From contig OZ025742.1 in assembly GCA_964019335.1 (NCBI GenBank), forward strand, positions 1 to 64,000: a stretch of 64,000 nt of DNA, given 5' to 3'. The notes below the pieces were generated by a model. The model worked only from the letters and a program-made list of their open reading frames with translations. It made no database searches and had not been told where the DNA came from. Origin of the DNA: Diplonema japonicum (Eukaryota; Protista; Euglenozoa: Diplonemea). Shown here piece by piece: positions 1 to 39,371 of the stretch; position 1 is the stretch's first letter, and each line of letters opens with the position of its first letter. The position numbers and the translations under genes were made by a program.

Positions 1-621
1 CCGGCCCTGCAGAAACAGGTCAGTGCGCAAGGGGAGGCGGTGCTGAAGCAGGGGGAAGGACTGGCAGCCGTCCAGACCAGCATCCAACCCCTGCAGAAAC
101 AGGTAAGTGTGCAGGGGGAGGAGCTGCGGAAGCAGGGAGAGGGTCTGGCAGAGATCAGGACCAGCCTCCCGGCTCTGATGGAGCAGCTGAGGAGTCAACA
201 GGAGGCTCTGGAGAAAGGGGTGCGTGCCATGATGGCCAAGCAGGAGGAGCGGGACGCGAGGGACACCGCCAGAAGAACGGCCCTAAAGGCCAAAAAGGCC
301 CAAACCACCGCCACACCCACAGCCCCGACACCGTCCAAATTCATCGGACCGGAGCTGGAACCGAACACCCCACAGCAACACCAGCCATCCTCGGGCTCGG
401 AAACGGAGTTGGAAGACACTCCCGCCGGAGCAAAACCAGGAAGGCGCAGGGGCCAGGAATGGGCCTCTGCAAAGGTGTCGCTGAAGGCAGCGCCCTACGC
501 ACCAGGGGGCTCGAAGGGTTCGAAGGGGACAACCTCCTCCTCCACCTCGACATCGCCGACACCGAGCACACCGGACACAGCGAAGAAGTCCGGGAAAGGC
601 GGAAAATCAAAGAAGAGGTGA
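1..621 (+). CDS. Probable E1 ORF1, C-terminal part (28-aa coiled-coil repeats, basic low-complexity tail), partial
   Basis: Frame open from base 1; 84-nt repeat LQKQVSxQGE..KQGEGLA; layout resembles the ORF1 C-termini of E2-E4. Confidence 0.65.
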   Translation, partial: PALQKQVSAQGEAVLKQGEGLAAVQTSIQPLQKQVSVQGEELRKQGEGLAEIRTSLPALMEQLRSQQEALEKGVRAMMAKQEERDARDTARRTALKAKKAQTTATPTAPTPSKFIGPELEPNTPQQHQPSSGSETELEDTPAGAKPGRRRGQEWASAKVSLKAAPYAPGGSKGSKGTTSSSTSTSPTPSTPDTAKKSGKGGKSKKR

Positions 622-903
622 AAAAGGTGATAAGTTTTTTCCATTTTACCATAATAGATAAGAAAGAAAAAAAAAAGAAAAAAGAAAGTGTTTCCCTATT
701 AAGCCCCCAACCCCCCAATTCGTCTACAAAAAAAAAAAATAATAAAAAAAAAAAAAAAAAAAAAAAACCATAAAAAAAAAAACAAAAACAAAAAAAAAAA
801 CATAAAGAAAATAAAAGAACAAGAGAAAAAAAAAAAAACAACAAAAAAAAAATATAAAAATAAAAAAAAAATAATACACGACGACGACGACGACGACGAC
901 AAC

Positions 904-1140
904 GGGTCACAGCAATGTCATCTCTCTGCGCGAAGGAAGCTCGTACGACTTGGCTACAACTCGCGGCTAAATCCTGGCCGGCCCCGCACGTATAGGGGTG
1001 TCCAAACGGGACAAGGCGTTAGTGGTGGCGACGTAAGGTCTGTTAGGGCCGGCCCCCCCCAAGTCGTACAACCCTATCTTCGAAGACCTGAAGGTAGGGG
1101 TGACCACAAAGGCAGAGTGACATACATGCTGAAACGACCC
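904..1140 (+). promoter_or_regulatory. Nested multi-helix RNA structure upstream of E1 ORF2 (candidate IRES or recoding element)
   Basis: Complementary pairs 943-953/1059-1069 (11 bp perfect), 976-984/1046-1054, 1072-1081/1090-1099, 904-929/1112-1140. Confidence 0.6.
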
Positions 1141-4100
1141 TCGACCACACCGAGAAAGATGCGCAAAGGTTGCGGACCACATGATATGGACATCTTGGCG
1201 TGCGGTGACGTCGAGCAGAACCCGGGGCCAGCCGCGAAAGACGGATGGCTGAAGATAGTCTCGCTGAACGTGAGGTCCCTCAGAGCTAGGAAGGCCGAAA
1301 TCGAGAAGGCTATCGAAGAAACAGCGCCGGACATCCTGTGTCTCCAAGAGACACACCTAACATCAGACGATGCGATCCACGGCTGGTTCGAAGGGTACAG
1401 AGCTTTCCGAAGAGACAGGACGCGACCGAGAAGGAGGAATTTCCCCATAAAAGGGGGCGGCTTACTGACTCTCGTGAAAGAAGGCATCAACGCTAGCGGT
1501 GTCGAAAGGAAGGAGAAGAAAAATGACGTGACGGAAAGACTGGACGTCAAAATATACCCGCCAGGTCAAAAGGAGATCCTCCTGGTGAACATCTACCTTC
1601 CACCAACATCGCCGTCAGATCCGAGCGATGACAGACCGAGCATCGACACCTACTTCAACCCGAACACACTCCCGACAGGGGACAGAACCTTAATCATGGG
1701 GGATTTCAACGCCCACCACCCTCTGTGGGACGGGAGAAGAAAGAAAGAGGACCTCATAGGTGACAAAGTCGCAAAGTGGATGATCGAGAAAGGGATGCGA
1801 CCCTGGAATGACAAAGCCACACCGACACTATTGAACACAAGAGGTTCCTTATCATCACCGGACCTGGTGATAAGCGGGCCAGACATGGACTCTAGATCCT
1901 GGACAACCCTCGATTCATGGGGGTCTGACCACATACCCATGTCCATCCGGATAAGAACGAAATACGAAACCGGACCAACCATTAAGAAATTCAGCTTCAA
2001 AAAAGCTGACTGGGAGGGGTACAGAAATCATCTGGAGTACACCCTGAGGCACCTGCAGAGAACAGGAGACCCGGTCAGGCTAAACAAGCAGTTCACTGAA
2101 GCAGTCAAGGAGGCCGCCAGGCTCTTCATCCCAAGAGGGGGAGCGAGAGGCGGGAAAGCGTGGTGGACTGAAGAGCTGACGCAACTGGTTGGAAGAAGAA
2201 ACGCTCTGAAGAAGGAGATTATGTCGGACATCGGCATCCCATCGATAGAACAATGCGAGAGGCTTGGTGAAATCAGCAGGCAAGTGCAGAAACAGATCGA
2301 TGAAGGGAAGAAAAGAGCGTGGGCCGACTACATGAAGGAGCTGTCTCAGAAAAAGGACTTGGGACACGCTTTCAGGACGATAAAAACGCTCGATGGCAGG
2401 AAGGACAAAGATCCAGTAGCACCACTAATGGCAGGCGGCAAGCTACACACATCGGCGAAGCAAAAAGCAGACGTCCTTGTGGAGCACTACGCAAAGGCTT
2501 TTGCACCCCACCTTAACAAGGACACAAAGAAGATGCTGGACGGTGAAAACAGGAAGTCCAAAGTGATCAAGGACTTGAGGGACAGGGTCACTTGCCCAGG
2601 GATAAGCATGGAGGAACTGAAGCACGCGCTGAGGCAGTTGAAGAAGGGGAAATCCCCGGGCCCAGACGGTGTCTACAACGAGATGCTGAAACACCTGGGG
2701 GGGACGGCCATGGACACATTACTCCATCTGTTCAATATGTCATGGGAGAAGGGAGTGGTACCATCAGACTGGAGGTTCACGCACATAATCCCACTTTACA
2801 AAGGAAAGGGCAAGTCAAGAAGTGATCCGGCATCGTACAGACCGATATCGCTAACCTCCAACATTTCAAAGACAATGGAGAGGATAGTAAAGATAAGGGT
2901 CGACTACCACCAAGACGTGGGAGATGTGAAGAGGGTGCACAAAATGCAGTCAGGTTTCAGGAAAGGGCGCTCCACAGAAGAGAACGTCCTGCAAGTGACC
3001 ACGAAACTGAACCGCATCAGAGACGATGAGTTCTGCGGCGGACTTTTGCTCTTCGACCTGAAAGGAGCCTTCGACACAGTGTGGCACAAGGGTCTAAATG
3101 CGAAAATGAGGAGTAATGGCTACCCGCAAAGAATTACGGACTGGGTGGCCGCTTTCCTAGACCAGAGGATCGCTGCCGTCAAGGTGAGTGGCGAAACAGG
3201 GAAGCACGAACACATAACGGGTGGGGTTCCACAGGGAACCATCCTTGCCCCAACCCTCTTCTCGATCTACATGGACGACCTCTCAGAGACGTTCGAAAAG
3301 GAGGGCATTGATGCCGTGATGTACGCAGACGACATTGCGGTGGTGCTGCACGAAAAAGACCTGGACAGCTTGAATGGAAAACTGATGAAGATCCTGAGGG
3401 TTGTGGAGAGCTGGTGCTCGAGAAACTCGATGGTGATCTCCAAGGGAAAGACAGAGTTCCTTCCCGTTGCTGGCATCTCCTATCCGCAGAGAACACTGAA
3501 GGGGAAGATCAGAGCAACTTTCAAGACCGGCGAAGAACTCGAGGTGGTCGAAAAAACAAAGCTGCTCGGAGTCACCTTCGAGGAGGACATGCTTTTCTCC
3601 GAACACTCCAGAGACGTCTTGGAAAGAGGTGAAAGCAGGGTCAGGCTGCTGAGCTGCCTTGCGGGAACGAGATGGGGTTGCAAGAAGGTGGTGTTGAGGG
3701 CTCTATACCTCACATATGTGCAACCAGTCTTCAGATACTGCTTGGGCGTGTACGGGTCATTTCTCCCGAGCGGGAGGAACACGCCCCACGAAGGCATCAA
3801 GAAGCTTCAATACAGGGCAGCGGTGAAGATCACAGGCTGCATCGCGTCATCAGAGACATTCGCGACACTGAACGAAGCGGGGCTGTGGACCCTGGATGCG
3901 CTGATCGAACACGACAGCCTGTTGCTCTACGAGTCACTGATGAGAAAAGTGGACACCGCCGCATACCAGGCGACTCAGCCTCTGGAGGATCTGACCAGGT
4001 ACGAGAAGCTCCTACCAAGGAGGACTTGGTCTGACAAACAGAGAGAGGCATCGAAAGCCTACAAACTCCCAGAGAGGACGGGCACACCTCACTCGGGCGC

Positions 4101-5109
4101 CGTCTTCATGAGGAGACTCGCGGTTGCACCCTGGCAAAGATTCGAGGGGCAACTCGTGCTCTCCCCCTTCCTAGACACGCAGGTGAAAAGGACGGACCCA
4201 AAAGAGGTCAGGAAAGAGGCAACAACGAACACCCTGAACAGGTTATGCGAGAAACACGGCCGGGCATTCTGCATGGTGTTCACAGACGGGTCCGTAAAGG
4301 ATGGGAAAAACGGAGGCTCGGCCGCCATCCTGCTGCACAACGGGTCCGATGCTGCCTACGGGATCAGCGGTGGACTGTATTCGACATCCTACAAATGCGA
4401 ACTCAGGGCCCTGAGGCTAGGGATCCGACTGGCGACAAGACTCTCAGAGAGGAAGCTTGCAAGCCAAGGGATGGTTCTGATATGCACAGATTCGCAGTCG
4501 GTGATACGGAAGATGTGCCAGGGACACATGTCGGCAGCCTCCAAAGATGACTTCGAACTCTGGCAGGAGGTCGCGAGCTTGACAGGCAGAGGCCACAAGC
4601 TAATCGTTCAATACGTCCCGAGTCACTGCGGGTACAAGTGGAACGAGAAGGCGGACCAGAAGGCAAAAGAGGCGAGCGAAAGACTGGCCCACACCCGTGA
4701 GACAGACATTGAGGTGGTTAAAACTCTGGTGAGGAAGCATGTCATCAGAAGCCACCTCCGCCTATGGAAGGATACTGGCGTCACAAAGACGTACAGGGAG
4801 CAGTTTGCCGGAAGTTACGAGAAGTTCGAGGAGCTGGACAGAAAGAAAGAAGTGGCGATCATGAGGCTGAGGGTGGGGAAGAGCCCACTCACTTGCGGAT
4901 ACCTACTCATACCCCCAGTCGAGGAGGTCCCGTGCCATCTATGTTCGCAACCCCAGACTCTAAGCCACCTCCTACGGGAATGCCAAGACGGAAAGAGGAT
5001 CGACCAAAGGAGTCAGATCTTCGGTAGCTCCCTTCCTTCCCTCAAAGTCCTCCTGTCCACCGACGCCTGTAAGACCGCCCAGCTCTTGGAGCGGCAGGGA
5101 ACATTGTGA
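1126..5109 (+). CDS. E1 ORF2: 2A peptide + APE endonuclease + reverse transcriptase + RNase H + CCHC knuckle (intact; frame open from 703)
   Basis: DILACGDVEQNPGP; SLNV, LQETHL, GDFNAHH, SDH; PGPDG, YRPISL, GVPQG, YADD; FTDGS, TDSQS, SHCG..NEKAD; CHLC..HLLREC. Confidence 0.95.
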   Translation: MLKRPSTTPRKMRKGCGPHDMDILACGDVEQNPGPAAKDGWLKIVSLNVRSLRARKAEIEKAIEETAPDILCLQETHLTSDDAIHGWFEGYRAFRRDRTRPRRRNFPIKGGGLLTLVKEGINASGVERKEKKNDVTERLDVKIYPPGQKEILLVNIYLPPTSPSDPSDDRPSIDTYFNPNTLPTGDRTLIMGDFNAHHPLWDGRRKKEDLIGDKVAKWMIEKGMRPWNDKATPTLLNTRGSLSSPDLVISGPDMDSRSWTTLDSWGSDHIPMSIRIRTKYETGPTIKKFSFKKADWEGYRNHLEYTLRHLQRTGDPVRLNKQFTEAVKEAARLFIPRGGARGGKAWWTEELTQLVGRRNALKKEIMSDIGIPSIEQCERLGEISRQVQKQIDEGKKRAWADYMKELSQKKDLGHAFRTIKTLDGRKDKDPVAPLMAGGKLHTSAKQKADVLVEHYAKAFAPHLNKDTKKMLDGENRKSKVIKDLRDRVTCPGISMEELKHALRQLKKGKSPGPDGVYNEMLKHLGGTAMDTLLHLFNMSWEKGVVPSDWRFTHIIPLYKGKGKSRSDPASYRPISLTSNISKTMERIVKIRVDYHQDVGDVKRVHKMQSGFRKGRSTEENVLQVTTKLNRIRDDEFCGGLLLFDLKGAFDTVWHKGLNAKMRSNGYPQRITDWVAAFLDQRIAAVKVSGETGKHEHITGGVPQGTILAPTLFSIYMDDLSETFEKEGIDAVMYADDIAVVLHEKDLDSLNGKLMKILRVVESWCSRNSMVISKGKTEFLPVAGISYPQRTLKGKIRATFKTGEELEVVEKTKLLGVTFEEDMLFSEHSRDVLERGESRVRLLSCLAGTRWGCKKVVLRALYLTYVQPVFRYCLGVYGSFLPSGRNTPHEGIKKLQYRAAVKITGCIASSETFATLNEAGLWTLDALIEHDSLLLYESLMRKVDTAAYQATQPLEDLTRYEKLLPRRTWSDKQREASKAYKLPERTGTPHSGAVFMRRLAVAPWQRFEGQLVLSPFLDTQVKRTDPKEVRKEATTNTLNRLCEKHGRAFCMVFTDGSVKDGKNGGSAAILLHNGSDAAYGISGGLYSTSYKCELRALRLGIRLATRLSERKLASQGMVLICTDSQSVIRKMCQGHMSAASKDDFELWQEVASLTGRGHKLIVQYVPSHCGYKWNEKADQKAKEASERLAHTRETDIEVVKTLVRKHVIRSHLRLWKDTGVTKTYREQFAGSYEKFEELDRKKEVAIMRLRVGKSPLTCGYLLIPPVEEVPCHLCSQPQTLSHLLRECQDGKRIDQRSQIFGSSLPSLKVLLSTDACKTAQLLERQGTL
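1168..1230 (+). other. Canonical 2A (StopGo) motif GDVEQNPG/P
   Basis: Exact D(V/I)ExNPGP consensus directly before the APE domain. Confidence 0.9.
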
Positions 5110-5316
5110 AAAAACTTATAAATTATAATATGTTATACTCTCCAAACATTGAGGTCTGAAGTTGTTAAACGACTTCAGACAGCAATTGTTTCTAACTCAA
5201 TCTCTCGACTCTGGCTTCACTCCTATCCTTTCTTTTCACCTCCCTCCCCAGTGTCTTCCCTTATTTTCCATTACCAGGCCCCTGTCCCCCGCCCCCAGTG
5301 TTATTCAAATTTTTCA

Positions 5317-7963
5317 CGTAACGTAGAGAGACCGCAGAGTGTCCCTCTTGCTGCCCCAGGACGTGCCAGACAAGAGCTTCAGCACCCTCAGCCTTTTGCT
5401 GGCCCGCCGTAGGATGTCCTGTGCGTGTTCACCGAACGTGAGCCCAGAGTCCACCGTTACCCCAAGGTACCTCGCGTGTTCAGACAGAGGCAGGGGACGG
5501 GCCGCAACGTAGTCCACGTCGGGCCGTCGCACGGCTGCATGCATGTCCCGCACGCAGCGGATCCGCACACCACCCGCCTCCACAACCTGAAGGCCCGCCA
5601 GCTCCTGGTCCCCGGAGATCGTGCCATCGGCGTTCACCCCCAGGCCGAAGAGTGGGTTCTGGAAGGCACCTGGCTGAAGGGGGACTCGTGACGAAGTGAA
5701 GTAGACCCCGAGACGTTTCTGGGGGGGGACGCAGACTGCCTGCGTCTTGGACGTGCTCAGCAGCATGTCACGCTCCCTGCACCAGTCCTCAACCGCATCC
5801 ACCACTGCCTGCGCCTTCCGCTCCAGCCCAGCCACGTCCCCTTGTCCAGAGGAGATCACAACCGCCACGTCGTCGGCGTAGAGCACCGAGACGTCCGCCA
5901 GTCCCTCCAGTCTCCTGGCGAGTTCGTCGACGTAGATGGTGTACAGGATGGGACCCAAGACAGAGCCCTGGGGGACACCCCGTCGCACCTTCGTCGTCGA
6001 CCCCCTCGACCGTCCAATCGTGACCGCAGCAGTACGGCCGCATAGAAAGGACCGCGTCCACTCCACGAAGGGTTCGGGGAGACCCTTCCCTCGCATCTTG
6101 TCCAGCAGGGCACCATGGGGCACCAGGTCGAAGGCAGAAGAGAAGTCGAACAGCAGAGCGGCCGAGAGACGTCGATCGTCTTTGTTCCTCGACATGCACT
6201 CAGTGAGGGTTGCCACCTGCTCCTCCGTGGAGCGGCCGCGTCTGAAACCAGCCTGGCTGTCGTGGAGTCCCTCGACTCCCGTCCCGTCCGCGTCAAGAAG
6301 AAACGTGAGCCTCTCCTCGATCATCCTCTCCAGCAGCTTGCAGAGGCAGCTGGTCAGGCAGATCGGCCGGTAGGAAGCCAAGAGAGTCGCATCTTTTCCA
6401 GGTTTCGGTACCGGGACGATCACTCCCTTCTTCCAGGCGCCGGGAACAACACCCATCAGCCAGGAGCGATTGAGGAGTAGAAGGAGGACAGGGAGTCCGA
6501 GTTCAGGTGTAGGAGCATCTCCGAGAAGATTCCGTCTTCCCCGGCCGCGCTGCGCGTCTTCATCCTTCTCAGGCCGCGGGTGAGGTCGTCCACGGTGAAC
6601 GCTTGACACCCGAGTCTGCTTGCAGAAGGAGCGGCGTCCTTCGAGTTCCCGTCACCACGCCTGCCGTAGAGCTTAGCGAAGTGCGCCCCCAGCCGGTCGG
6701 CCTTCGCCTTGTCCGACACAAATCTTCCCTCGAGTACAGGAAGGTGTGTCTTTCGGTGCCTGCCGTCCAGCTTCTTCACCGCTCTGAACGCAGCCCCGAG
6801 GTCCTTGCTCCGGCTGAGGTCGGCCGCCATCCTTCCCCATGCCTCACGCTTCGTCTCGTCAAGAAGTCGGTTGACTTCTTTCACCTTCGCCCTGTACTCC
6901 TCCACCACGTCCGCCTCTTGAAGCAGGAGTTCGCGCAGGGTGTTCCGCTCTTCGAAGGCGTCCTCGAGCTCAGCAGTCCACCAGGGGGTCGGGCCACGTC
7001 GCATCCCACAGAGGGGAATGTGGTCGTTCGCCGCAGTCAAAAGGGCTTGTGTAAACCCCTTCGTGACAGAGTCAATCGGAGCCGCCGTGTCAACACCAGC
7101 AAGCAGGCGGGCAACAGCAGCAGTGTAGTCGTCCCACCTGGCTTTTTTGAAATTCCAGGTGGGGAAGGGGCGCTCCGAACGGTAGACGTCCTCAAGAGGC
7201 AGGTGAAAGGATACGGGACTATGATCGGAGCCCCACGTGCCCAGCGTCTTCGGCTCAAGCTTCGCGCAGCGCCCCACAACCAGGTCCAGAACGTGTCGTG
7301 ACGAGTCCCTCGTCGGTTCGTTGCGGTCGTTGTAGACGGAGTACCCGTGGGTGTCCAGCCAGTCCCTGACCACGTTCCCCCTCTCGTTCGGCGTCGTCAC
7401 CGTGGCGTCCCAGGAGCTGTGGTGAGCCAGTCACCCGCTATGACTGTGTTCTTCCCCATGGGAAGGCTGCCAGGCCGCAGGTACTCAGGGTCCCTCGTGC
7501 CTCTGCCCGCGCTTACCGGTGTAAGGTAAACGTTGGAGAGAGTGATCGGCTCACGCTTCTCGCAGGAGATCCTCACATCCAGTCTCTCAGTGACACAGTC
7601 CCCAGCCGGGAGTACGTGCGGAACCTCCTCCGAGGCAAGATCGTCGCGGACATACGTGACAATACCACCACCCCTCGTCGCAGTGCCGTCAGTCACCGGT
7701 GTCAACCGATCCCTCCTGTATGACCTGTACCCAGGCAGGTGTGGCGTGTCGTGCCCTTCCCTCAGGTGCGTCTCCTGTATCATGATGATGTCCAGCGACA
7801 AGAAGTCAGCATGGCGAGATACGACGGTCCATTTCGCAACGAGGCCGTTGCAGTTCCACGAGACAACCTTGAGACCCTTAGGCGACGGGGGCGGCAGCTT
7901 CTTGGGTGGGCCAGGGTTTGTTTCGACCAGCCCAAGCAGCCCCAGCAGGTCCCTGACGGACAT
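5317..7963 (-). pseudogene. E2 ORF2 (2A-like, APE, RT) with frameshifts at ~7428 and ~6495, truncated before RNase H
   Basis: ORFs 7397-7963, 6456-7400 and 5314-6609 align consecutively to E3 ORF2; GDFNAHH motif broken by a small deletion. Confidence 0.9.
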
Positions 7964-8104
7964 CCTCCCGAGTAGGGTGGGGATCAGTGCAGAAAAGTCG
8001 GTGAAGAAACAGAGAGGTAGGAGTCTCCTGGGGAGGATGCGAGGGAGACTAGGAGAGGGAGCATGGTCGTAGATCTGCTGCTCCCCCTGTTCTGCGGGGC
8101 CCCT
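7907..8104 (-). other. In-frame post-UGA linker + 2A-like motif (LLGLVETNPG/P) of E2
   Basis: 47 sense codons after the ORF1 TGA run in frame into MSVRDLLGLLGLVETNPGP. Confidence 0.8.
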
Positions 8105-10966
8105 TCAATTGGATGGACCCATGGAGGCAGAGCGCCCCTTGACCCCATTGGTGAAGAGATCTTTGGTCTCCGCGAACGACCTGGCCCGCCCCCTCGTACC
8201 CAGGTTCGTCACCGCAGCCTCAGAGGTCGTAGCGAGAGGAGGAGCCCCCTTCTTCCCCTTCCCCTTCCCTTTCCAGACACTGTCGTGTGTCGTCGTCGCC
8301 CCCGGTGTAGGGTCCCGCGGCACTGCCGTTCCCGTCGTCAGCGTGGCCGCCTGCGGCAGGAGGAGGCGGAGCGTCGTCCGCAGATCGGAGATCATCTCCT
8401 GCTGAGAGTCGATCGTCCTCTGCAGCCCGACGATCGACTCCTTCAGCGTGGCGACGAGCTCAGTGAGAGCGGCGACCTCAGGCGACCCGGAAGGGACCCC
8501 CTCCTTGTTTCCCCCAGACACGTTGCGGGGCGGTGTAGGGGACGTCACAGTGTCGAGCTGGGGGGGAGCCACCGAGCTCGGTATGGACGCCCACGGGCTG
8601 GTGGGAGGAAGCCCAGTTGCTTTCACCGCAGGGTCAGTCCCCGAGGGTGTCGACGCCGATACAGGTGCCGGGTCAGGTACAGGTGTAGGCGCAGGTGCAG
8701 GTACATGAGAAGATGTGGGTGCCGGGGTCGAGGACGTTGCAAGCGCAGGTGCAGATGCAGGTGTCGTCCTGTTGATGAGAGGGGGCGGCTTGACGGTCGG
8801 GTGGTCGTCCGCATCACGGAGGCAGACAAGGCGCCCCCCAAGGAGCCACGTCCTGGACTTCGGGGGCGGGCCGTCGACGACGATGAAGAACACGAGTTGC
8901 CTCGTGCCCTGGAACATCGTCTGCGTGCGTCGCAGGACGGAGGATGGTTTCCAGCCGATGTGGTCCATCATTTCATCGAAGGCCGCCCTGGTGATGGACG
9001 GCGGGGCCCCGGTGAGCAAAAACTTGCGCTTCGTACGCAGTTTTGCGAGGGTTTCCCGGAGCCGCTGTTCCGTCTCCGGTAGGCACCGCACAGTCCATCC
9101 CTTACGGTGCGCCACCCCGAGAGACAACCCACCCAGCGTCCCCGCAATCCGAAAGGCATCCGCCCTCCCTTCCGCCACGATGGGTACATAAGCGTACCCC
9201 CCGCGTCTCTCCGTCGTCCGGATCATGCACCCGTCCCCGGACCGGCGCAGGACGGCGTGGACGTGTGCTGCTTGCAGGCGCAGTCCCACCTCGTGGGTCC
9301 AGTGCCTCGCCCGCGGTTCCTCCTCACCGAACTTCCTTGGGCGGAAGACCGCACGATCCTCCACCACCGCGCCCTGAGCCTTGGCGAGCTCCAGGACCCT
9401 GGCCTTCGCCTCCTTCAGGCTGTCTGCACTGACACAGACGTAGACGACCTCCGATCCGCTGTTGAAGGTGGAAGGCGGGGTGTAGGTGGGGGGGTCCAGC
9501 CCGAACGTGGAGACGTGGACCCTCCTGTTCACTGCGCGCGACCCAGAGACCATGACAATCTCGCTGGGGGTGGTGACACCGGGGACCTCTGTCATAAGGA
9601 CAAAGGTGATGGATGCCGTAGGTAACGCGGAGCACACGACCCCCATTCCGGAGGGATCGTCGAGCGCAATGACAGCGCGGGATGTTTCCGTCGGGGGGGA
9701 CACGTTGGTGTAGATCGGGGCGTCCCATGTGTCTGGCACCAGGTCCCATCGCGGGGTTGTGGAAGGGGCAGGGGCAGGGTCGTCCTCCATCTCCTCAGGG
9801 CCAGAGCTGGTGTCAGAGTCTGAGCTGAGGAGGAGCGTGCCTTGGTCTGTTGACGCGTTGGCGGAAGCGTTCGCGACTGCTTCGTCCTCGACCTTCTGGG
9901 CATCTGCCTTCTTGGCGGCCGCCAACCTCAAAGCTTCCTCCTTTTTGGCAGCGGCTGCGGCGGCTTCCTTTTCGGCGGCGGCGGTGGCTGCGACCTTCTT
10001 CTTCTCCTCGGCGGCGGCGGCTGCGGCTGCGGTCTCCTTCTCGGCGGCGGCGGCGGCGGCTGCAGCTTTCTTCCTGGCGGCGTCGGCTGCGGCCTTCCTC
10101 TCGGCGGCGGCGGCGGCGGCTGCTGCTTTCTTCTCGGCGGCGGCCTTCTCCTCGGCGGCGGCGGCGGCTGCTGCTTTCTTCTCGGCGGCGGCGGCGGCTG
10201 CGGCTTTCTTCTTCTCGGCTGCAGCGGCTGCGGCTGTAGCCTTCTTCTCCTCGGCTGCTTTCATCTCGGCCGCAGCACGCGCAGCCTCCTTCTCCTCTGC
10301 CGCAAGTCGTGCAGTAGACCGCTCGCGCAGAGCCTTCTCCTCAGCCTCGACTGCTCTGCGAGCAGCCTCCACACCAGCCACGCGTGCAGCTTCCGTCTCG
10401 GCTGCCATTTTGACAACCGCAGCATCAGCCACCTCCTGCGCAGCCTTCATCTTAGCTGCTATTTCTGCAGCTACCACGTCGGCCGACTCGCGTGCAGCTT
10501 CCAAATCAGCAGCGATTCCCGCGAGTTCGACGTCGGCCGCAGTGCGTGCGGCTTCGAGGGGGTGTGTGGCGTCAGCTTTGTGTGCGGCTTCGGCGGCAGC
10601 GTCAGCGCGCGCGGCTCTGGCGGCCTTCCTCCTAGCTTTCTTGCTGGAGGTCGGGGTGGCGACGCTGGCGTCAGGCGAAACCGGCCTTTTGACGGAGCCG
10701 GTCGGGGTGGAGGCGACAGGTGTCGCTGGGCCGGCTGTAGCGGCGGCGGCGTCGGGCGTGAGGAGGTCAATCACGGTGACCACCCCCGTCATCTTCTCCC
10801 GGTGCTCCGGCGTCAGGAGCTGCCCCAGCTCCCCGGCTGCTCCCGCGCTGCGGAGCATCCTCTCCACCCGCCGCTCCTCCCTGGCCTTGGACTGCGCCAG
10901 CTGCGTGCTGGCCCCGTTCCCTTCCGGCTTTGCCTTCTCCTTGTGCTTGTCTTTCTTCTTGCCCAT
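8105..10966 (-). CDS. E2 ORF1 (Ala/Lys/Glu-rich coiled coil, central RRM-like region, coiled coil, basic tail)
   Basis: 953-aa ORF with ATG after an A-run; AAAAAEKK repeats; central domain homologous to E3 and E4 ORF1. Confidence 0.85.
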   Translation of the reverse strand: MGKKKDKHKEKAKPEGNGASTQLAQSKAREERRVERMLRSAGAAGELGQLLTPEHREKMTGVVTVIDLLTPDAAAATAGPATPVASTPTGSVKRPVSPDASVATPTSSKKARRKAARAARADAAAEAAHKADATHPLEAARTAADVELAGIAADLEAARESADVVAAEIAAKMKAAQEVADAAVVKMAAETEAARVAGVEAARRAVEAEEKALRERSTARLAAEEKEAARAAAEMKAAEEKKATAAAAAAEKKKAAAAAAAEKKAAAAAAAEEKAAAEKKAAAAAAAAERKAAADAARKKAAAAAAAAEKETAAAAAAAEEKKKVAATAAAEKEAAAAAAKKEEALRLAAAKKADAQKVEDEAVANASANASTDQGTLLLSSDSDTSSGPEEMEDDPAPAPSTTPRWDLVPDTWDAPIYTNVSPPTETSRAVIALDDPSGMGVVCSALPTASITFVLMTEVPGVTTPSEIVMVSGSRAVNRRVHVSTFGLDPPTYTPPSTFNSGSEVVYVCVSADSLKEAKARVLELAKAQGAVVEDRAVFRPRKFGEEEPRARHWTHEVGLRLQAAHVHAVLRRSGDGCMIRTTERRGGYAYVPIVAEGRADAFRIAGTLGGLSLGVAHRKGWTVRCLPETEQRLRETLAKLRTKRKFLLTGAPPSITRAAFDEMMDHIGWKPSSVLRRTQTMFQGTRQLVFFIVVDGPPPKSRTWLLGGRLVCLRDADDHPTVKPPPLINRTTPASAPALATSSTPAPTSSHVPAPAPTPVPDPAPVSASTPSGTDPAVKATGLPPTSPWASIPSSVAPPQLDTVTSPTPPRNVSGGNKEGVPSGSPEVAALTELVATLKESIVGLQRTIDSQQEMISDLRTTLRLLLPQAATLTTGTAVPRDPTPGATTTHDSVWKGKGKGKKGAPPLATTSEAAVTNLGTRGRARSFAETKDLFTNGVKGRSASMGPSN

Positions 10967-11731
10967 TTTTCTTTTCTTTTCTTTTACAATTTTTTTTTTT
11001 TTTTTTTTTCAAAATACCAATAGGTGCCACCATGGGGGAGCAACACCTGGGAAGGGGAAAGGTGAAGGGAAGCATGGAAATATTACAGGGAGGGCGAAGA
11101 CCAGTTCTTCTGCAATCAGATGGAGCTGTGGACTCCGCCAACCCGTGCACCTGTTTGGAACAGCCGAAGAGGGCTGAATTACTTTAATTCCAAGCCGCGT
11201 AGACCTACGTGACTCGGACGGGGACCTTGACCCCAGTTCGTCGTTTTTCTCAACTGGGACCTCTGGTGACCGGAACTGGCCCCGGTCGCCCCCTCGAGAG
11301 GGATTTGCTCCATTGAGCGAAACATGAAAGGGTGAGAGTAAAATCTCTCAAAATCAAAAGGGGAAGCGAGTGTGCGTGTGCGCATGGGGATGATAGGGGA
11401 AGCATTTGCTCTCCCCGCTGCACTCCGGCAGGCGGGGGGAGGGGATGGCCGTACCACACTCGTTCGTGCGAAGATGAGAGGACTCATCTTGGCAACTTCA
11501 GAGTAGGCCGGGTCATCCGTTTTTGACTACAATGTCAGGGCACACGATAACAAGAGGATGTTAATTTTAAAAAATTTTTAAAATTTAAAAAGTTTAAAGG
11601 GGGACGGGCATACTGGTAAGAGAAGGCCAGACGCCGGATGATGATAAAGAAAAGGATGAGAGGGAGTGGAAGAGAGGGGAAGGGAACGTAAGCACTAAAA
11701 GAATTGAAATGTTGATCTCACCCTACTCACT

Positions 11732-14700
11732 TCAGCGCAACACGGGGGCCGCAGGGCCGGCGTCAAGGGAGACAGCCGGCGGGATGAACGAAGGGGCAGC
11801 GGTACCTGCCGTTGCCGCAGACGGCGACGTGAAGACCCCGGATCTGGCCCAGTCAAGCAAGCCAGAGTCGGCGATGAGGGTGAATACCTGCGTCACGCGT
11901 TTTGACAGGCACTCCACCAGCGAGGGGCGTCCATTGGGAGCGTCGAGCGAACCCCGTCCAACCACAGCGCACCCCCCAACAACGTGCTCCCTGGACATCC
12001 GAGCTCCACACGCTGGACAGCTGAGCTCAGCCTTCTTCCTGTTCGGTCCAGCCGCCTGCAGGAAGCCGAAGAAGAGAGCGGAGTGCCCTACCCTCAGCCG
12101 CGAGATGACCGTCTCCGCTAGCCTGGGGAGGGACTGGGGGAAGCACGCCGCTCGGAGCCCCGTGGCCCTCGCGTACCTCGGGGCCACCTCCCCGACAATG
12201 ACCGCAGACCTCTGCTGAATCTGGCGACGGACCAGGGCCCTGACCGACCTGTAGTCGAGAGAGGGGCGAGTCAGCTCGCGCTTCGTGCCCTCCCCGGCCA
12301 GCCTGTCTGCCGCCTCGTTGCCAGGAACCCCGCAGTGGGACGGCACAAACTGGAGAATTACTGGTGCACCTTGTGCACGTGCCGCGGCCACCAGCAGTTC
12401 CCAGGTCTCGTGGTCGAGCCTCTCCCTCTGCCGCGAAGGACCTGCCCTCAGCTGATCAAGGAGAGAGAGCGAGTCGGTACAGATCGACAGCCGGCTGTCT
12501 GCCAACGTGGGGTGCTCGCTCCGGAGCGCGGCCACCATGTCCAGAGCCACCTTGACAGCCAGACCCTCCGCCCGAAAGGAAGAGCAGAAATTGCTGACGC
12601 CGAAGCTCTCGGACACGGGTTCGTGGGGGCGGGGGAGCTGCAAGTAGACCCCGGCGCCGCCCCTCCACCTCTGGCGGTCCCGTACGACAGAACCATCCGT
12701 ATAGGCATGGATACCCGGTGGAAGGGCAGCCAGAGCCTCCACGGCCGCCTTCCGCTTATCCACGTCCGGCGACGAACGCGTGACCCTGCCGGGAAGGGCA
12801 GTTCTGAACTCCACCAGGAACGCGTGCCACGGTGCTACTTTGGGCGAGGCAGTCAGTAGCTCGAAGGTGTCGTACTTCCTGAAGCCTTCCTGCGTCGTCC
12901 ACCCCTGCAGTCCGCAGCGTCGTAGCGCAAGGATACCCGCACGCAGCCACCCATTGCCCATACCGGTCATCCGCTTCTGCTCAAGGACCTCGCGGTGAAC
13001 CGGGGAGGTCCTCCAGCAGAACGACTTCGCCGTCAACACCGCCGCAGCTCCCTCAGCCATCTGTCGGAGGGGTAGCAGACCTGCCTCAGCAACAACCTTC
13101 GCCGTGCCCGAGCCGTGCCAACAACCCGAGATCAGCACCGCCGCTCTCTGGTGGAGCCCAACAAGCTCCTCCACCCTGCTGTCCCTGAGCCTGGCAAAGT
13201 AAACACCCATGCAGTACCGGAGTAGCGGGAGAACGTACGTGAGGTACAGAGATCGGAGCGTGGCCTTCTTGCACCCCCAGGTCGTGCCCGACAGGAGCCT
13301 TAGTACCCTCAGCCTCTTGTCAGCGCGCCTCAGGACATCCCCCGCATGCTCGTCAAACGTGAGCCCAGAGTCTACAGTGACCCCAAGATACTTCGCCGAC
13401 CCACACAGAGGCAAGGGGCGAGCCGCCATGTAACCAATGTCGGACCTCCGGATGGCGGCGGGAATGTCGAAGGACCGTTTGCCACCCGCCTCCACGACCC
13501 GAAAGCCAGACAGCTCACGGACGCCAGACAAGGTCCCACAGGCCCCAACCCCAAGATTAAGGACAGGGTCCTGGAAGGCCCCCGGGCAAAGCGGGACACG
13601 CGACGAAGAGAAGTAGACATTAAGCCGCTTCTGATAGGGAACGCACACTGCCTGCGACTTGCTGGAGCTCAGCAGCATGCCCCGTCTCCCACACCAGCCC
13701 TCAACCGCGTCCATCACAGCCTGGGCCCCTCGCTCAAGACCAGCCAGGTCGCCCTGCCCGGCTGAGACCACCACCGCAACATCGTCGGCATAAAGAACCG
13801 ACAGGTCCGCCATCCCAACCAGCAACCTGGCTAGCTCGTCGACGTAGATGGTGTAAAGGACGGGTCCCAGCACAGACCCTTGGGGCACCCCTCTCCTCAC
13901 CTTCGTCGTCGACCCTCGCGAACGACCCACCGTGACCGCCGCCGTACGACCGCAGAGGAAGGAGCGCGTCCATTCGACGAAGGGCTCAGGGATCCCTTTC
14001 CTCCGCATCATGCCCAAGAGAGCTTCGTGCTGAACCAGGTCAAACGCAGATGAGAAGTCAAACAGCAGGGCAGCCGACAGACGCCGACTGTCTTTGTTCC
14101 TCGACAGGCACCCGGTCAGGGACGCCACCTGCTCCTCCGTGGAGCGGCCCCTCCTGAAGCCAGCCTGGCTGTCGTGGAGACTCTCAACGCCCGACGCGCT
14201 AGAGTCTAGGAGAAAGGTAAGCCTCTCCTCTATCATCCTCTCAAGCAGCTTACAAAGACAGCTAGTGAGACATATGGGACGGTACGATGCAAGCAACGTG
14301 GCGTCCTTCCCTGCCTTCGCCACTGGAACAATCACCCCCTTCTTCCAGGCACCCGGCACGATCCCCGCCTGCCATGAGCGATTGAGGAGCAGAAGTAGAA
14401 CCCCGAGCGAGGGTTGGTCGAGGTGGAGAAGCATCTCCGCGAAGATGCCATCATCACCCGCTGCACTGCGTGTCTTCATCCTTCCCAGACCGCGGGTGAG
14501 ATCATACACCGTAAAGGCGTGGCACCCAAGCACGTTCGTCGAAGGAGCTACGTCCACCGCGTCCCCATCACCACCCTGGCCGTAGAGCTTGCCGAAGTGA
14601 GCCCCCAGGCGGTCGGCTTTCGCCTTGTCCGTCACGAACCTCCCCTCGAGAATGGGAAGGTGCGGTCTGCGGTGTCTGCCGTCCAGCTTCTTCACCGCCC

Positions 14701-15898
14701 TAAACGCAGACCCGAGGTCCTTGCTCCGACTGAGGTCAGCCGCCATCTCACCCCAGGCCGCGCGCTTCGACTCGGTCATGAGTTGGTTTACCTCCTTGAC
14801 CTTCGCCTTGTAGACCGCCGCCACGCTGTCGTCCTCAGTCTCAGCCGACTTGAGGAAGCGATCCCGCAGGGCGTTCCGTTCTTCGAAGGCGTCTTCGAGT
14901 TCGGCCGTCCACCAGGGGGTCGGGCCTCGTCGCACTCCGCAAAGCGGAATGTGGTCGTCAGCTGCATGCAGAAGAGCCTCTGTAACCTCCTTCGTGAAGG
15001 AGTCAATGTGGGCCTTCGTGTCGATCTTGGTCAGAAGGGCAGCGGCGGCCGCGGTGAAGTCGTCCCACCTGGCCTTTTTGAAGTTCCAGGTAGGGCAGGG
15101 TCGCTCCGAGCAGTAGGCGTCCTCAAGCGGCAGGCGGAAGGAAACCGGGCTGTGATCAGAGCCCCACGTCCCCAACGTCCTCGGCTCCAGTTCCGCACAA
15201 CGTCCCACCACCAGGTCCAGAACGCATGGCGGTGAGTCCCGCGTCGGCTCGTCACGGTTGTTGTAGACCGTGTAGCCGTGGGTGTCAAGCCAGTCCCTGA
15301 CCACGTTCCCCCTTTCGTTGGGCGTTGTCACCTTGGCATCCCAAGAGCTGTGGTGTGCGTTGAAGTCGCCAGCAACGATCGTGTTCTTCCCCACAGGTAG
15401 GCTGCCCGGCCGTAGGTACTCGGGGTCCCTTGTCCCTCTGCTTATACTCACAGGCGTGAGGTACACGTTGGAGAGGGTGACCGGGACGCGCTTCACACAG
15501 GAGATCCTCACGTCTAATCGCTCAGTGACACTGTCACCTTCAGGGAGTACGAAAGGAGCTTCCTCCGAGGCAAGGCAGTCACGGACATACGTGATGACAC
15601 CACCGCCTCTCGTCGCAGAGCCGTCCGTCACCGGTGTTGTGCGGTCCCTCCTGTAGGACGTGTATCCAGGCAGGTATGGTGTCTCATGCCCCTCCCTAAG
15701 GTGTGTCTCCTGGATCATAATGATATCCAGCGTCAGTAGGACAGCGTGGTAGGACACGGTTGACCACTTGGCGGCAAGACCGTTGCAGTTCCAGGACAGG
15801 ACCCTGAGTCCCTTCGGCTTCGGGGGTGGGAGCTTCTTAGGTGGACCGGGGTTCGTCTCAACCAGCCCAAGCAGCCCCAGCAGGTCCCTGGCCGACAT
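11732..15898 (-). CDS. E3 ORF2: 2A-like + APE + RT + RNase H + CCHC (frame open upstream to 16039)
   Basis: LVETNPGP; SWNCNG, QETHL, GDFNAHH, SDH; YRPICL, GVPQG, YADD; YTDGS, TDSLS, SHCG..GNEAAD; CPAC..HVVGGC. Confidence 0.95.
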   Translation of the reverse strand: MSARDLLGLLGLVETNPGPPKKLPPPKPKGLRVLSWNCNGLAAKWSTVSYHAVLLTLDIIMIQETHLREGHETPYLPGYTSYRRDRTTPVTDGSATRGGGVITYVRDCLASEEAPFVLPEGDSVTERLDVRISCVKRVPVTLSNVYLTPVSISRGTRDPEYLRPGSLPVGKNTIVAGDFNAHHSSWDAKVTTPNERGNVVRDWLDTHGYTVYNNRDEPTRDSPPCVLDLVVGRCAELEPRTLGTWGSDHSPVSFRLPLEDAYCSERPCPTWNFKKARWDDFTAAAAALLTKIDTKAHIDSFTKEVTEALLHAADDHIPLCGVRRGPTPWWTAELEDAFEERNALRDRFLKSAETEDDSVAAVYKAKVKEVNQLMTESKRAAWGEMAADLSRSKDLGSAFRAVKKLDGRHRRPHLPILEGRFVTDKAKADRLGAHFGKLYGQGGDGDAVDVAPSTNVLGCHAFTVYDLTRGLGRMKTRSAAGDDGIFAEMLLHLDQPSLGVLLLLLNRSWQAGIVPGAWKKGVIVPVAKAGKDATLLASYRPICLTSCLCKLLERMIEERLTFLLDSSASGVESLHDSQAGFRRGRSTEEQVASLTGCLSRNKDSRRLSAALLFDFSSAFDLVQHEALLGMMRRKGIPEPFVEWTRSFLCGRTAAVTVGRSRGSTTKVRRGVPQGSVLGPVLYTIYVDELARLLVGMADLSVLYADDVAVVVSAGQGDLAGLERGAQAVMDAVEGWCGRRGMLLSSSKSQAVCVPYQKRLNVYFSSSRVPLCPGAFQDPVLNLGVGACGTLSGVRELSGFRVVEAGGKRSFDIPAAIRRSDIGYMAARPLPLCGSAKYLGVTVDSGLTFDEHAGDVLRRADKRLRVLRLLSGTTWGCKKATLRSLYLTYVLPLLRYCMGVYFARLRDSRVEELVGLHQRAAVLISGCWHGSGTAKVVAEAGLLPLRQMAEGAAAVLTAKSFCWRTSPVHREVLEQKRMTGMGNGWLRAGILALRRCGLQGWTTQEGFRKYDTFELLTASPKVAPWHAFLVEFRTALPGRVTRSSPDVDKRKAAVEALAALPPGIHAYTDGSVVRDRQRWRGGAGVYLQLPRPHEPVSESFGVSNFCSSFRAEGLAVKVALDMVAALRSEHPTLADSRLSICTDSLSLLDQLRAGPSRQRERLDHETWELLVAAARAQGAPVILQFVPSHCGVPGNEAADRLAGEGTKRELTRPSLDYRSVRALVRRQIQQRSAVIVGEVAPRYARATGLRAACFPQSLPRLAETVISRLRVGHSALFFGFLQAAGPNRKKAELSCPACGARMSREHVVGGCAVVGRGSLDAPNGRPSLVECLSKRVTQVFTLIADSGLLDWARSGVFTSPSAATAGTAAPSFIPPAVSLDAGPAAPVLR

Positions 15899-20100: not shown

Positions 20101-21224
20101 CAGACGCTCCCCTAGACCCTCACCAGGCGGATGGTGGTTTAGAAATGATCGACCTCACGCAGGACTCCCCGGACAGACCCTCGCGCAAGAAGAAGCACGA
20201 CGGCACTGCTTACGAACACGAAAGCCGTCGTGGTAAGAGTTCCTCCACAGGCGATGGGGATCTTCTCATCCTGCGCGAGCAGTCACAGGGTTTTGATCAG
20301 GAAGCCCTCAACCGAAGGGCCCTCCAGAGACGGATGGATCGATACCTCAGTCTCTTGGTCTACTTCCGGCGACACCCGGAGCTCTTGGACGAACACCAGC
20401 GTCAGCTCCTGTCGGTCGGTCCCCTCCCGATGCACCTGGACACCTCTCCACATCAACTGCTGCTCGAGGCCCGTGACACGGATAGAACTGCCGACCAACA
20501 GGCAACCGTCGCCAACCAGGAACAGCTTCTTCTGATTGCGCACAAGGCGTTGCCTACCACCGAACGTCTTCGGTTGTCTCACGAATGGCACTCGGGGCTG
20601 AACACCGCGGTACAGCAACAGTGGTGGTCGGAGTTCTTCGCCCAAGGCGGCTGGAAACACCCACTCTTCGGTTCCGAGGCCCCAAGAGGTGACGAGACTA
20701 GGACTCCAGGGAGGACCCCTCTCCTGCTCACCTACAACGGGCAGAGGAACAAACGCCCGGAACCCGAAGACGGCCCCGCCCTTCCCGCGGCCAAACGGGA
20801 TCTCGCCGCGACGAGGCCGAACACCAGAGTCACTGGACTTGTCGCCCTTAAGAGGCTCACCAGGGAAGCAGACGTCGACGGCCCTGAGGACCTGGATGAG
20901 CTTCGACACCTGGGCTTCCTTTCCCAGGGCGAGGCCGTCTTTGACCTCAGCTGCATGTCCAGGGCTTGCACACACTTCCTGGGTGAGACCCCCATGGTCA
21001 CGGTCCCCCTCGACACACGCGTCGCGATCCCGTGTCTGCTGGTCTGTTATGACTCGACGTGGCTCTACGCTTCCCGCCAGGAACAGGGCTTTCGGTTGCA
21101 GACCCAAGGGTTCAAGGACAAGTCGTATCCGACTGTGGCAGCCCTACTCGCTGACTTCGTGGGGGCAGGGACCCTCTACTACAGCGAGTCACAGTGGTCG
21201 ACTGTGCTGAACTCCTACAACTAG
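17171..21224 (+). CDS. Penelope-like element polyprotein, 5'-truncated: PLE-type RT + thumb, Josephin-like protease, low-complexity linker, degenerate second Josephin-like domain
   Basis: YWIVDS, TYDFRDMYTNL, GIPMGGNASPDLANLF, RYIDD, H..APxxQGPGIFKG..IR..L..RG; CGWAVINWL..GNFS..HWFIALRK..D. Confidence 0.85.
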
Positions 21225-39275: not shown

Positions 39276-39371
39276 TCCATCTTTTCTTTTTGCAGTTTTC
39301 TTTCTTCTTGCTCCTTTTTTTTACTGACATGCAACCTTATCCATCCCTCACACTCAGGTACCTCCACAACA

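What the first reader, a model, noticed from the sequence alone, without database searches (positions are those of the whole stretch)
703..1230. E1 uses a different inter-ORF design: A-rich spacer, 240-nt nested RNA structure, canonical 2A
Seen: the ORF1 stop is followed by further stops (628, 700), so simple readthrough is excluded as assembled. The ORF2 frame is nevertheless open from 703 through poly-A, (GAC)7 and a nested set of helices (904-929/1112-1140, 943-953/1059-1069, 976-984/1046-1054, 1072-1081/1090-1099) that buries the first AUG (1126). Inference: an IRES-like, reinitiation or frameshift element, with the 2A making ORF2p independent of where translation starts. Homopolymer errors could hide a continuous frame.
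Basis: partly seen in the sequence, partly recalled or inferred. Interest (0 to 1): 0.7.

Follow-up and report, generated by a model that had tools for sequence, protein, structure and literature searches.

The report
Ribozyme-like switch inside a retrotransposon
In a jumping gene of a marine protist, a 240-base folded RNA sits just ahead of the reverse-transcriptase gene and behind what is likely the element's first gene; it likely descends from the self-cutting leader of related single-gene elements and likely controls how the second protein is made.

Summary
E1 is an Ingi-group LINE (2A, APE, RT, RNase H) of Diplonema japonicum or a very close relative. ORF1 (1-621) ends in six in-frame stops, so readthrough is excluded. 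The ORF2 frame is open from 703 (7 of 5000 shuffles) and 904-1140 folds better than 200 of 200 shuffles. One correction: an out-of-frame AUG at 915 precedes AUG 1126.

Contig depths in public runs hint that ORF1 travels with ORF2, and the inner structure recurs in diverged sibling families, with indels mostly in loops. Of three 2A-bearing relatives from metagenomes, two have an HDV-like fold directly after a microsatellite, then a frame open to the 2A, which is E1's layout.

E1's structure fits an HDV-like core only with a 165-nt insertion and no P4, and a rival rod is 13 kcal/mol more stable. Best reading: an Ingi/L1Tc-type leader (ribozyme-derived switch plus cap-independent start, trimmed by 2A) placed inside a two-ORF element. 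The rivals are spliced-leader trans-splicing at 657 and an unrelated upstream gene. No activity was tested. New variant of a known kind.

The parts
1..621 (+). 3' end of an ORF cut by the window edge: two 28-aa coiled-coil-like repeats, then an S/T/P/G/K-rich tail; probable ORF1 of E1 (inferred, about 0.7)
   Evidence: no Pfam or informative homologue; depth on the ORF2 gradient in X10; diverged paralogues match 406-536 and 422-466
622..702 (+). UTR-like stretch with five further in-frame stops, a U-rich tract and the best candidate trans-splice acceptor (AG 656-657)
   Evidence: 75% pyrimidine in the 20 nt before the AG; use as an acceptor untested
660..878 (+). A-rich tract, the most A-rich of the window; host-type UTR or decayed poly(A) tail (inferred)
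   Evidence: A-runs of 6 or more also precede the first ATG in 9 of 13 other long frames; length unchecked by reads
879..899 (+). (GAC)7 microsatellite directly before the structured RNA
   Evidence: relatives L005 and L008 have (AAC)n and (TA)n at the same place
904..1140 (+). Structured leader: outer rod 904-929/1112-1140, inner helix 943-953/1059-1069, hairpin 1072-1082/1089-1099
904..1123 (+). Alternative HDV-like register (predicted): P1 905-910/1100-1105, J1/2 911-914, P2 915-921/1117-1123, P3 922-924/932-934 (2 of 3 pairs), L3 925-931, J4/2 with C1113, 165-nt insert 935-1099, no P4; a cut would fall before G904
   Evidence: descriptor written after seeing the sequence; canonical descriptors do not match
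943..1082 (+). Inner domain shared with diverged sibling families; indels at 986-995 and in the C-run, longer linker before 943, distal hairpin replaced in one sibling
   Evidence: tables 4, 5, 7, 8; pairing probabilities
915..995 (+). 26-aa out-of-frame uORF starting in the P2 5' strand
1126..1230 (+). First in-frame AUG, 34-aa leader peptide and 2A motif (DVEQNPG|P, 1207-1230); further in-frame AUGs at 1159 and 1186
   Evidence: skipping activity untested
1126..5109 (+). ORF2, 1327 aa: APE endonuclease, RT, RNase H, C-terminal Cys/His motif; intact
   Evidence: an identical and a 4-residue-different protein are in EukProt, in a cluster labelled Diplonema japonicum
5110..5316 (+). 3' UTR with a strong hairpin (about 5152-5178); joined to a 3'-truncated element E2 at 5316/5317 without tail or target duplication
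   Evidence: tile 5041, z -5.5; loose ends at 5316 and 5317

Best explanation
The 240-nt folded RNA before ORF2 is likely the ribozyme-derived 5' leader of Ingi/L1Tc-type retrotransposons, likely lying here inside a two-gene element, where it would let ribosomes start ORF2 without a cap while the 2A peptide would trim off whatever was translated first. Shown: the ORFs, the stops, the fold by energy, the 2A motif, and sharing of the inner domain with sibling families. Inferred steps: (1) a single-ORF Ingi unit (microsatellite, leader, open frame, 2A, ORF2) came to lie behind an ORF1 with its UTR and A-tract, and the composite now travels or is transcribed as one; (2) during transcription P1 (905-910/1100-1105) forms first and an HDV-like core can form briefly, cutting a minority of RNAs before G904 or, if the core is vestigial, none; (3) once 1112-1140 is made the RNA refolds into the rod, which shuts cleavage off and half-buries AUG 1126, as downstream sequence does to the L1Tc ribozyme; (4) ribosomes are recruited at the leader, perhaps helped by the A-tract, and start at AUG 1126 or at a non-AUG codon in the open frame; (5) 2A skipping releases an ORF2p beginning with Pro, in small amounts.
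For: Layout: 2 of 3 2A-bearing relatives (L005, L008; 2 of 5 loci scanned) match an HDV-like descriptor exactly at the end of a microsatellite, against about 15 sites in 128 kb of window strands; their frames are open 137 and 94 codons before the 2A, the latter without Met. E1 has the same order of parts and a significantly open frame. E1 falls in one RT clade with these elements (SH-aLRT 98, quick tree). An HDV-like register starts at G904-G905, 4 nt after the (GAC)7; a tight version of it occurs in 1 of 20000 shuffles of either kind and at 2 sites in the window. P1 is in the minimum-energy fold of 904-1106 and 904-1112 and is displaced later, like the attenuating switch of L1TcRz (PMC3185411, passages). 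HDV-like leaders are reported to act like an IRES (PMC6765202, passages). One sibling contig matches the leader to 1075 and then only a 25-nt patch of the APE region, so the leader is better kept than the coding sequence there. ORF1 link: X10 ORF2 contigs fit a line (r2 0.975, 6 contigs) that predicts 3534 (95% interval 2745-4323) at 1-230, observed 3737; main/sibling depth ratios rank alike for ORF1 and ORF2 in 3 of 3 runs.
Against: No canonical HDV-like fold: 0 hits with strict descriptors (these also miss L005 and L008) and none at E1 with the looser one that finds them. The fit needs a 165-nt insert between P3 and P1', a P3 mismatch, a 3-nt gap before P1.1 and no P4; peripheral domains are described at J1/2 (PMC4908430, passages), and I saw none at this junction. 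A relaxed descriptor of this kind gives dozens of chance sites, and the tight one was written after seeing the sequence. L3 and J4/2 pair with each other (924-929/1112-1117), and forcing P1 costs 13 kcal/mol in 900-1145. No sibling sequence covers the P1 or P2 strands, so there is no covariation. Contig depth is a weak measure, the run types are unknown, X8 shows no gradient (r2 0.03) and X1 has ORF1 about three times ORF2. The X10 line shows no step at 904, so cut or ORF2-only molecules are at most a minority. The distal 1076-1095 helix is replaced in one sibling.
Confidence: 0.45

Rival explanations
1. ORF2 is expressed as diplonemid genes normally are: a spliced leader is trans-spliced at AG 656-657, giving a capped mRNA with an A-rich UTR. 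The uORF at 915 and the rod only damp scanning before AUG 1126.
For: Essentially all D. papillatum mRNAs carry a spliced leader (PMC10161547, passages). The best pyrimidine tract plus AG of the spacer is at 656-657. A-runs precede the first ATG in 9 of 13 other long frames. E4 has a motif like the 3' end of a euglenozoan spliced leader upstream of its ORF1 (the leader sequence is recalled, not confirmed).
Against: It does not explain the stop-free frame 703-1125, the conservation of the inner domain in siblings or the Ingi-like layout. No spliced-leader junction was seen among the listed loose ends (24 of 109 shown), and X10 shows no depth step between ORF1 and ORF2.
Confidence: 0.22
2. 1-621 is an unrelated upstream gene or element. 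E1 is an ordinary single-ORF Ingi element starting at about 904 in a microsatellite, so there is no inter-ORF design at all and the structure is simply its 5' end.
For: Ingi elements are reported to lack ORF1 and carry 2A (PMC3708506, passages). L005 and L008 begin right after microsatellites. 622-878 looks like host UTR or an old poly(A) tail. 1-621 has no similarity to the ORF1s of E2-E4. One ORF1 paralogue contig runs 506 nt past 536 with no listed match to the leader (X1 record 2).
Against: ORF1 depth sits on the ORF2 gradient in X10 and main/sibling ratios track in 3 runs. E1's nearest relatives E2 and E3 do carry an ORF1 ending in UGA in frame with 2A-ORF2, and 1-621 also ends in UGA in that frame.
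Confidence: 0.23
3. Ribosomes finishing ORF1 reach ORF2 by long-range reinitiation, or by two slips (into the -1 frame before 619, back on the A-tract), so the open frame from 703 is translated as poly-Lys and poly-Asp and discarded by 2A.
For: The frame is open from 703 more often than chance gives; the +2 frame is open to 771. Nucleotide-level conservation of 406-536 in paralogues could be a tether. Reinitiation is proposed for L1 and SART1 (PMC5972666, passages).
Against: Six in-frame stops and 504 nt separate the ORFs, against 63 nt in L1. I saw no in-frame slippery heptamer before the stop (by eye). Long AAA runs usually stall ribosomes (established knowledge). No distinct ORF1-leader duplex was found.
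Confidence: 0.1

Closest known systems
L1Tc / ingi 5' module of trypanosomatids (Pr77 HDV-like ribozyme, attenuating downstream fold, N-terminal 2A)
   Same: APE-RT-RNase H ORF with an N-terminal 2A; a structured leader that can switch between two folds; a polycistronic, trans-splicing euglenozoan host (PMC4035085 part 1, PMC3185411 passages, PMC12278014 passages).
   Different: L1Tc has one ORF and a 77-nt canonical ribozyme at the very 5' end. E1's leader is 240 nt, fits the HDV core only with a large insert and no P4, and probably lies 280 nt behind an ORF1.
2A-bearing Ingi-like elements from metagenomes (L001, L005, L008)
   Same: Same RT clade (L001, L005); microsatellite, then fold, then a frame open to the 2A (L005, L008).
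   Different: Their folds are compact and near canonical, they have a Cys-rich stretch between 2A and APE, and I saw no long ORF ending just upstream in the sequence held.
R2 HDV-like ribozyme leaders
   Same: A large structured leader that releases the element RNA and is thought to start cap-independent translation (PMC6765202, PMC3774820, passages).
   Different: R2 inserts lie in J1/2 (216-498 nt in silkmoths) or L4; R2 is a single-ORF, rDNA-specific element with a different endonuclease.
Two-ORF LINE coupling (L1 63-nt spacer, SART1 UAAUG) and neighbours E2-E4
   Same: ORF1 followed by ORF2 on one RNA, with ORF2 needing non-standard initiation.
   Different: E2-E4 have one UGA in frame with 2A-ORF2. 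E1 has six stops and a 504-nt spacer with an A-tract, a microsatellite, a uORF and the leader.
Minimal HDV-like (theta) ribozymes
   Same: No P4 and a short link into J4/2 (PMC10879173, passages).
   Different: They are about 50-60 nt (recalled), nearly all in gut phages, and have no large insert.

Membership tests
Ingi clade LINE | APE + RT + RNase H in one ORF | tested here: met
   Pfam PF03372/PF14529, PF00078, PF00075 above cut-off
Ingi clade LINE | 2A-like motif at the N-terminus of the long ORF | tested here: met
   DVEQNPGP at 1207-1230, just before APE
Ingi clade LINE | RT groups with Ingi elements | tested here: inconclusive
   Clade with 2A-bearing L001, L005, P0008 at SH-aLRT 98 in a quick tree of 76 of 112 candidates; no named ingi or L1Tc sequence was in it
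Ingi clade LINE | Single ORF, no ORF1 | tested here: inconclusive
   Depths favour a linked ORF1; sister elements E2 and E3 have one; no contig bridges 652-909
Ingi clade LINE | Poly(A) tail and target-site duplication | not testable with these tools
   This copy's 3' end is fused to E2 at 5316/5317 and other copies run on; no genome is held
HDV-like ribozyme | Crossing P1 and P2 helices, G at the cut site | tested here: met
   905-910/1100-1105 (6 bp) crosses 915-921/1117-1123 (7 bp); G904 faces A1106. Complementarity only.
HDV-like ribozyme | 3-bp P3 closing a 7-8 nt L3 | tested here: inconclusive
   L3 925-931 fits the U-Y-Y-N-C-G-Y pattern (pattern recalled); P3 has 2 of 3 pairs
HDV-like ribozyme | P3 3' strand runs straight into the P1 3' strand | tested here: not met
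   165 nt lie between them
HDV-like ribozyme | P1.1 directly after P1, then P4 (P4 absent in minimal forms) | tested here: not met
   P1.1 partner only after a 3-nt gap; no P4
HDV-like ribozyme | Catalytic C in J4/2 (C-N-R-A) just before the P2 3' strand | tested here: met
   C1113 in 1112-1116; it is paired with L3 in the lowest-energy fold
HDV-like ribozyme | Covariation of helices and Mg-dependent self-cleavage | not testable with these tools
   No sibling sequence over P1/P2 was obtained; cleavage needs the bench
Described IRES or other Rfam family | Match to a curated model | tested here: not met
   0 hits at gathering score, 2 chance hits at E about 8; Rfam also missed the folds in L005 and L008, so this says little
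IRES (functional) | Cap-independent initiation in a reporter | not testable with these tools
   Needs the bench
2A / StopGo peptide | DxExNPG|P preceded by 18-30 residues | tested here: met
   34 residues from AUG 1126 to the Gly; motif and length from PMC3894237 part 1; skipping untested

The most novel reading that the evidence does not exclude
A two-ORF LINE carries an internal, self-attenuating HDV-like ribozyme of new topology (165-nt domain between P3 and P1, no P4) between ORF1 and ORF2. A fraction of transcripts cut themselves at G904 to give an uncapped ORF2 message read through the leader and a 2A, while uncut RNA makes ORF1p and serves as template: a ribozyme that sets the ORF1:ORF2 ratio.
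Probability: 0.2. Interest if true: 0.8.

Novelty: new variant of a known kind. Interest (0 to 1): 0.52.

Why it matters
How two-ORF LINEs translate ORF2 is still open (PMC3708506, PMC5972666, passages), and 2A was argued to replace ORF1 as the brake on ORF2 (PMC3894237, part 1). This one window holds relatives with both ORF1 and 2A and two different couplings: one UGA in frame (E2-E4) and a transplanted structured leader (E1). E1 is intact and is present in a transcriptome-derived protein set, so its spacer can be tested directly by in vitro cleavage and reporters. If the leader cuts, it would widen the HDV-like fold and place a ribozyme inside a bicistronic element. If 1-621 is unrelated, this is an ordinary Ingi 5' end with an unusually large leader in a little-studied protist. 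Eight literature searches listed nothing on diplonemid LINE leaders or on a ribozyme between ORF1 and ORF2; only listings of the top hits were seen and most subscription papers are not held.

Tried and rejected
No whole genome is held, so copies and flanks could not be compared. Close relatives: 0 of 31 pattern matches confirmed in metagenome contigs, 0 matches of a leader pattern in viral contigs, and among 56 distant loci no match to the leader (3 blastn hits, E 0.16 or worse) or to ORF1. No second leader copy in the window. ORF1 fragment: no Pfam family, 0 of 6340 and 0 of 823 candidates, one weak coiled-coil-like hit at E 5e-4, no Atlas hit; only 2 of 10 other window ORFs are in that collection exactly, so the blank says little. 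Rfam and ARAGORN are blank. Hammerhead, twister, pistol, RNase P, tRNA-head and an HDV register using 943-949/1063-1069 as P2 were considered by eye from recalled consensus motifs and dropped for missing core elements; these were not run as searches. An 8-bp ORF1-leader match (451-458/972-979) is expected by chance, and duplex folding gave nothing distinct. Frame conservation across sibling leaders could not be shown: the visible indels do not sum to a multiple of three. Depth excess over 901-1080 (X1 151 against 29; X8 about 221000 against 1000-15000) may mean short leader-only elements or RNAs, but summed contig depth cannot rank parts. No RNA holder was listed. Codon-position bias does not separate ORF1 from host genes. 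A target-duplication test failed because the E1/E2 junction looks like a deletion. Five look-ups of earlier findings returned nothing. Ruminski et al. 2011 is not held and is known only through a review. The spliced-leader sequence was not found in 7 supplements of PMC10161547.
Full report
Setting. The window is eukaryotic and no genome is held. ORF2 from AUG 1126 is identical to EukProt protein P0056 and differs at 4 residues from P0003, a Trinity-derived protein labelled Diplonema japonicum. The host is therefore that diplonemid or a very close relative, and near-identical copies are transcribed. ORF2 has APE, RT and RNase H domains and a 2A motif at 1207-1230. Three more LINEs with 2A-like motifs lie in the window. 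E2, E3 and E4 each have an upstream ORF ending in one UGA in frame with the 2A-ORF2. A quick RT tree of 76 of 112 candidates puts E1 with E2, E3, a D. ambulator protein and P0005 (SH-aLRT 98), inside a clade (98) with 2A-bearing metagenome elements and apart from I-like elements; it holds no named reference.

The observation. ORF1 and ORF2 share a frame, separated by stops at 619, 628, 631, 652, 655 and 700. Run X8 has depth in the 541-720 bin and no indel is listed there, so the stops look real; 652-909 was skipped as a repeat. The frame is open from 703 to AUG 1126. All 17 stop triplets of that stretch fall in the other two frames, and shuffles are stop-free in 7 of 5000 cases, about 4% for each half. 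The fold of 895-1150 beats 200 of 200 shuffles (z -3.33). Of 44 tiles across E1 only the 3' UTR tile scores lower, and tiles that cut the rod score near zero. The 9-bp GC helix is an alternative 0.6 kcal/mol above the minimum. An out-of-frame AUG at 915 precedes AUG 1126.

Does 1-621 belong to E1? No contig bridges the A-tract. The fragment has no informative homologue. The spacer looks like host UTR DNA: A-runs precede the first ATG in 9 of 13 other long frames, though this tract is by far the most A-rich. Against independence, the depths of exact-match contigs in run X10 rise smoothly towards the 3' end. A line through the six ORF2 contigs (r2 0.975) predicts 3534 (2745-4323) at 1-230, and 3737 is seen (7 of the 8 listed X10 records were used, the one with 25 differences was dropped; 895 further pieces were not shown). 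Such a gradient would come from 5'-truncated copies in DNA or from 3' bias in RNA, and either way implies one molecule. Main-to-sibling ratios also rank alike for ORF1 and ORF2 in X1, X8 and X10 (1.4-2.1, 7.5-10.8, 17-18 against 1.3, 9.3, 26.5). But X8 has no gradient (r2 0.03), X1 has ORF1 at 83 against ORF2 at 29, the run types are unknown, and the tool warns that depth is no copy number. I put the link at about 0.7.

Siblings. One search shows diverged leaders: one X1 contig matches 943-1082 with 14 substitutions and 5 gaps, beginning exactly at the first base of the 11-bp helix. One X10 contig matches up to 1075 and then only a 25-nt patch at 1523, so its leader is better kept than its coding sequence. 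Indels lie at 986-995 and in the C-run, where pairing probabilities are mostly 0.33 or less against a mean of 0.64, and the linker before 943 is longer in one variant. The distal part of the 1072-1099 hairpin is replaced in one sibling, which counts against that helix being essential. Only 40 of 97 substitution rows were shown, none in the leader, so compensatory changes could not be counted. Nothing covers the 904-929 or 1100-1140 strands.

What the layout resembles. A scan with an APE alignment gave 56 distant loci, three with a 2A before the APE. In L005 and L008 an HDV-like descriptor matches right at the end of an (AAC)n and a (TA)n run; L001, L004 and L007 gave no match, and the window background is about 15 sites in 128 kb. 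Their frames are open 137 and 94 codons before the 2A, L008 without any Met. Rfam misses both folds, so its silence on E1 means little. E1 has the same order: (GAC)7, structure from G904, open frame, 2A. This matches the known Ingi/L1Tc 5' module: an HDV-like ribozyme that downstream sequence switches off, a suspected IRES and an N-terminal 2A (PMC4035085 part 1 of 7; PMC3185411 passages; PMC3708506 passages; PMC6765202 passages; PMC12278014 passages).

Is E1's structure an HDV-like ribozyme? Not a canonical one. Strict descriptors find nothing and the looser one that finds L005 and L008 does not find E1. A register exists with P1 905-910/1100-1105 crossing P2 915-921/1117-1123, a 7-nt L3 at 925-931 and C1113 in a C-N-R-A J4/2. 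It needs a 165-nt insert between P3 and P1', a P3 mismatch, a gap before P1.1 and no P4. Minimal forms lack P4 (PMC10879173 passages); large peripheral domains are described at J1/2 (PMC4908430 passages; PMC3774820 passages), and I saw none at this junction. A tight form of the register occurs in 1 of 20000 shuffles (4 of 20000 at any start) and at 2 sites in the window, but I wrote it after seeing the sequence, and a relaxed form gives dozens of chance sites. P1 forms in the minimum-energy fold of transcripts ending at 1106 or 1112 and is lost once 1112-1123 is present; in 900-1145 it costs 13 kcal/mol. I put HDV ancestry near 0.45 and active cleavage near 0.3. It fails the membership test, and it may still work like the L1Tc leader.

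Mechanism. The best-supported account (0.45) is a transplanted Ingi-type leader inside a two-ORF element. It would give low-level, cap-independent ORF2 initiation at AUG 1126 or upstream in the open frame, with or without minority self-cleavage at G904, and 2A would fix the N-terminus. Rivals: spliced-leader trans-splicing at AG 656-657 with uORF-damped scanning (0.22; diplonemid mRNAs are generally trans-spliced, PMC10161547 passages); an unrelated upstream gene and an ordinary single-ORF Ingi (0.23); long-range reinitiation or double slippage (0.10; PMC5972666 passages). The open frame through the A-tract itself (703-903) is explained by none of the first three and may be the 4% chance event.

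Verdict. The feature is real. The parts are known, but their probable arrangement, an ORF1 together with a 2A and a large ribozyme-like leader in the spacer, runs against the reported correlation of 2A with loss of ORF1 (PMC3894237 part 1 of 3). New variant of a known kind, interest 0.52. Supplementary text of PMC10161547 on UTRs and repeats may bear on the trans-splicing rival; the 7 files searched gave no hit for the leader.

Noticed in passing
window 8105-8107, 16040-16042 (minus strand) and 30094-30096: E2, E3 and E4 end ORF1 in one UGA in frame with 2A-ORF2. E2 and E3 share a hairpin starting about 20 nt after the stop despite substitutions, a candidate readthrough signal; E4 has no Met between the stop and its 2A.
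   Followed up: partly
window 27611-27634: A T-run followed by a 13-nt motif like the 3' end of a euglenozoan spliced leader (recalled, unconfirmed) 180 nt before E4's ORF1; may mark reverse transcription of a trans-spliced RNA. One exact copy in the window.
   Followed up: partly
window 5152-5178 and 5270-5316: Strong 3' UTR hairpin (tile z -5.5) and a pyrimidine-rich 3' motif shared with the 3' UTR of E3, a possible recognition signal for ORF2p.
   Followed up: partly
window 5316-5317: E1's 3' end is fused to the inside of E2's RT region; other copies of both run on in their own sequence, which suggests a deletion between opposed elements.
   Followed up: partly
window 406-536: Two diverged ORF1 paralogues match here at the DNA level, more than sibling ORF2s match most of E1's ORF2; a possible RNA element near the ORF1 end.
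   Followed up: no
window 11297-11200 (minus strand): GC-rich stretch with several inverted matches upstream of E2's ORF1, followed by a pyrimidine tract, AG and an A-run; may be E2's own 5' structure.
   Followed up: no
window 17061-21224: A 1387-aa plus-strand ORF with a weak RT match interrupts E3's ORF1; a different retroelement.
   Followed up: no
L005:462-540, L008:39-140, L001:21-125: HDV-like folds at the 5' ends of 2A-bearing Ingi-like elements that Rfam 15 does not detect (L001 by eye only).
   Followed up: partly
P0004 (D. ambulator), residues 1-125: Three successive 2A-like motifs with a duplicated APE start at the N-terminus.
   Followed up: no
window 39264-44165: A 1633-aa ORF with a 1128-bp unit repeated about four times at over 99.8% identity; a recent expansion or an assembly artefact.
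   Followed up: no
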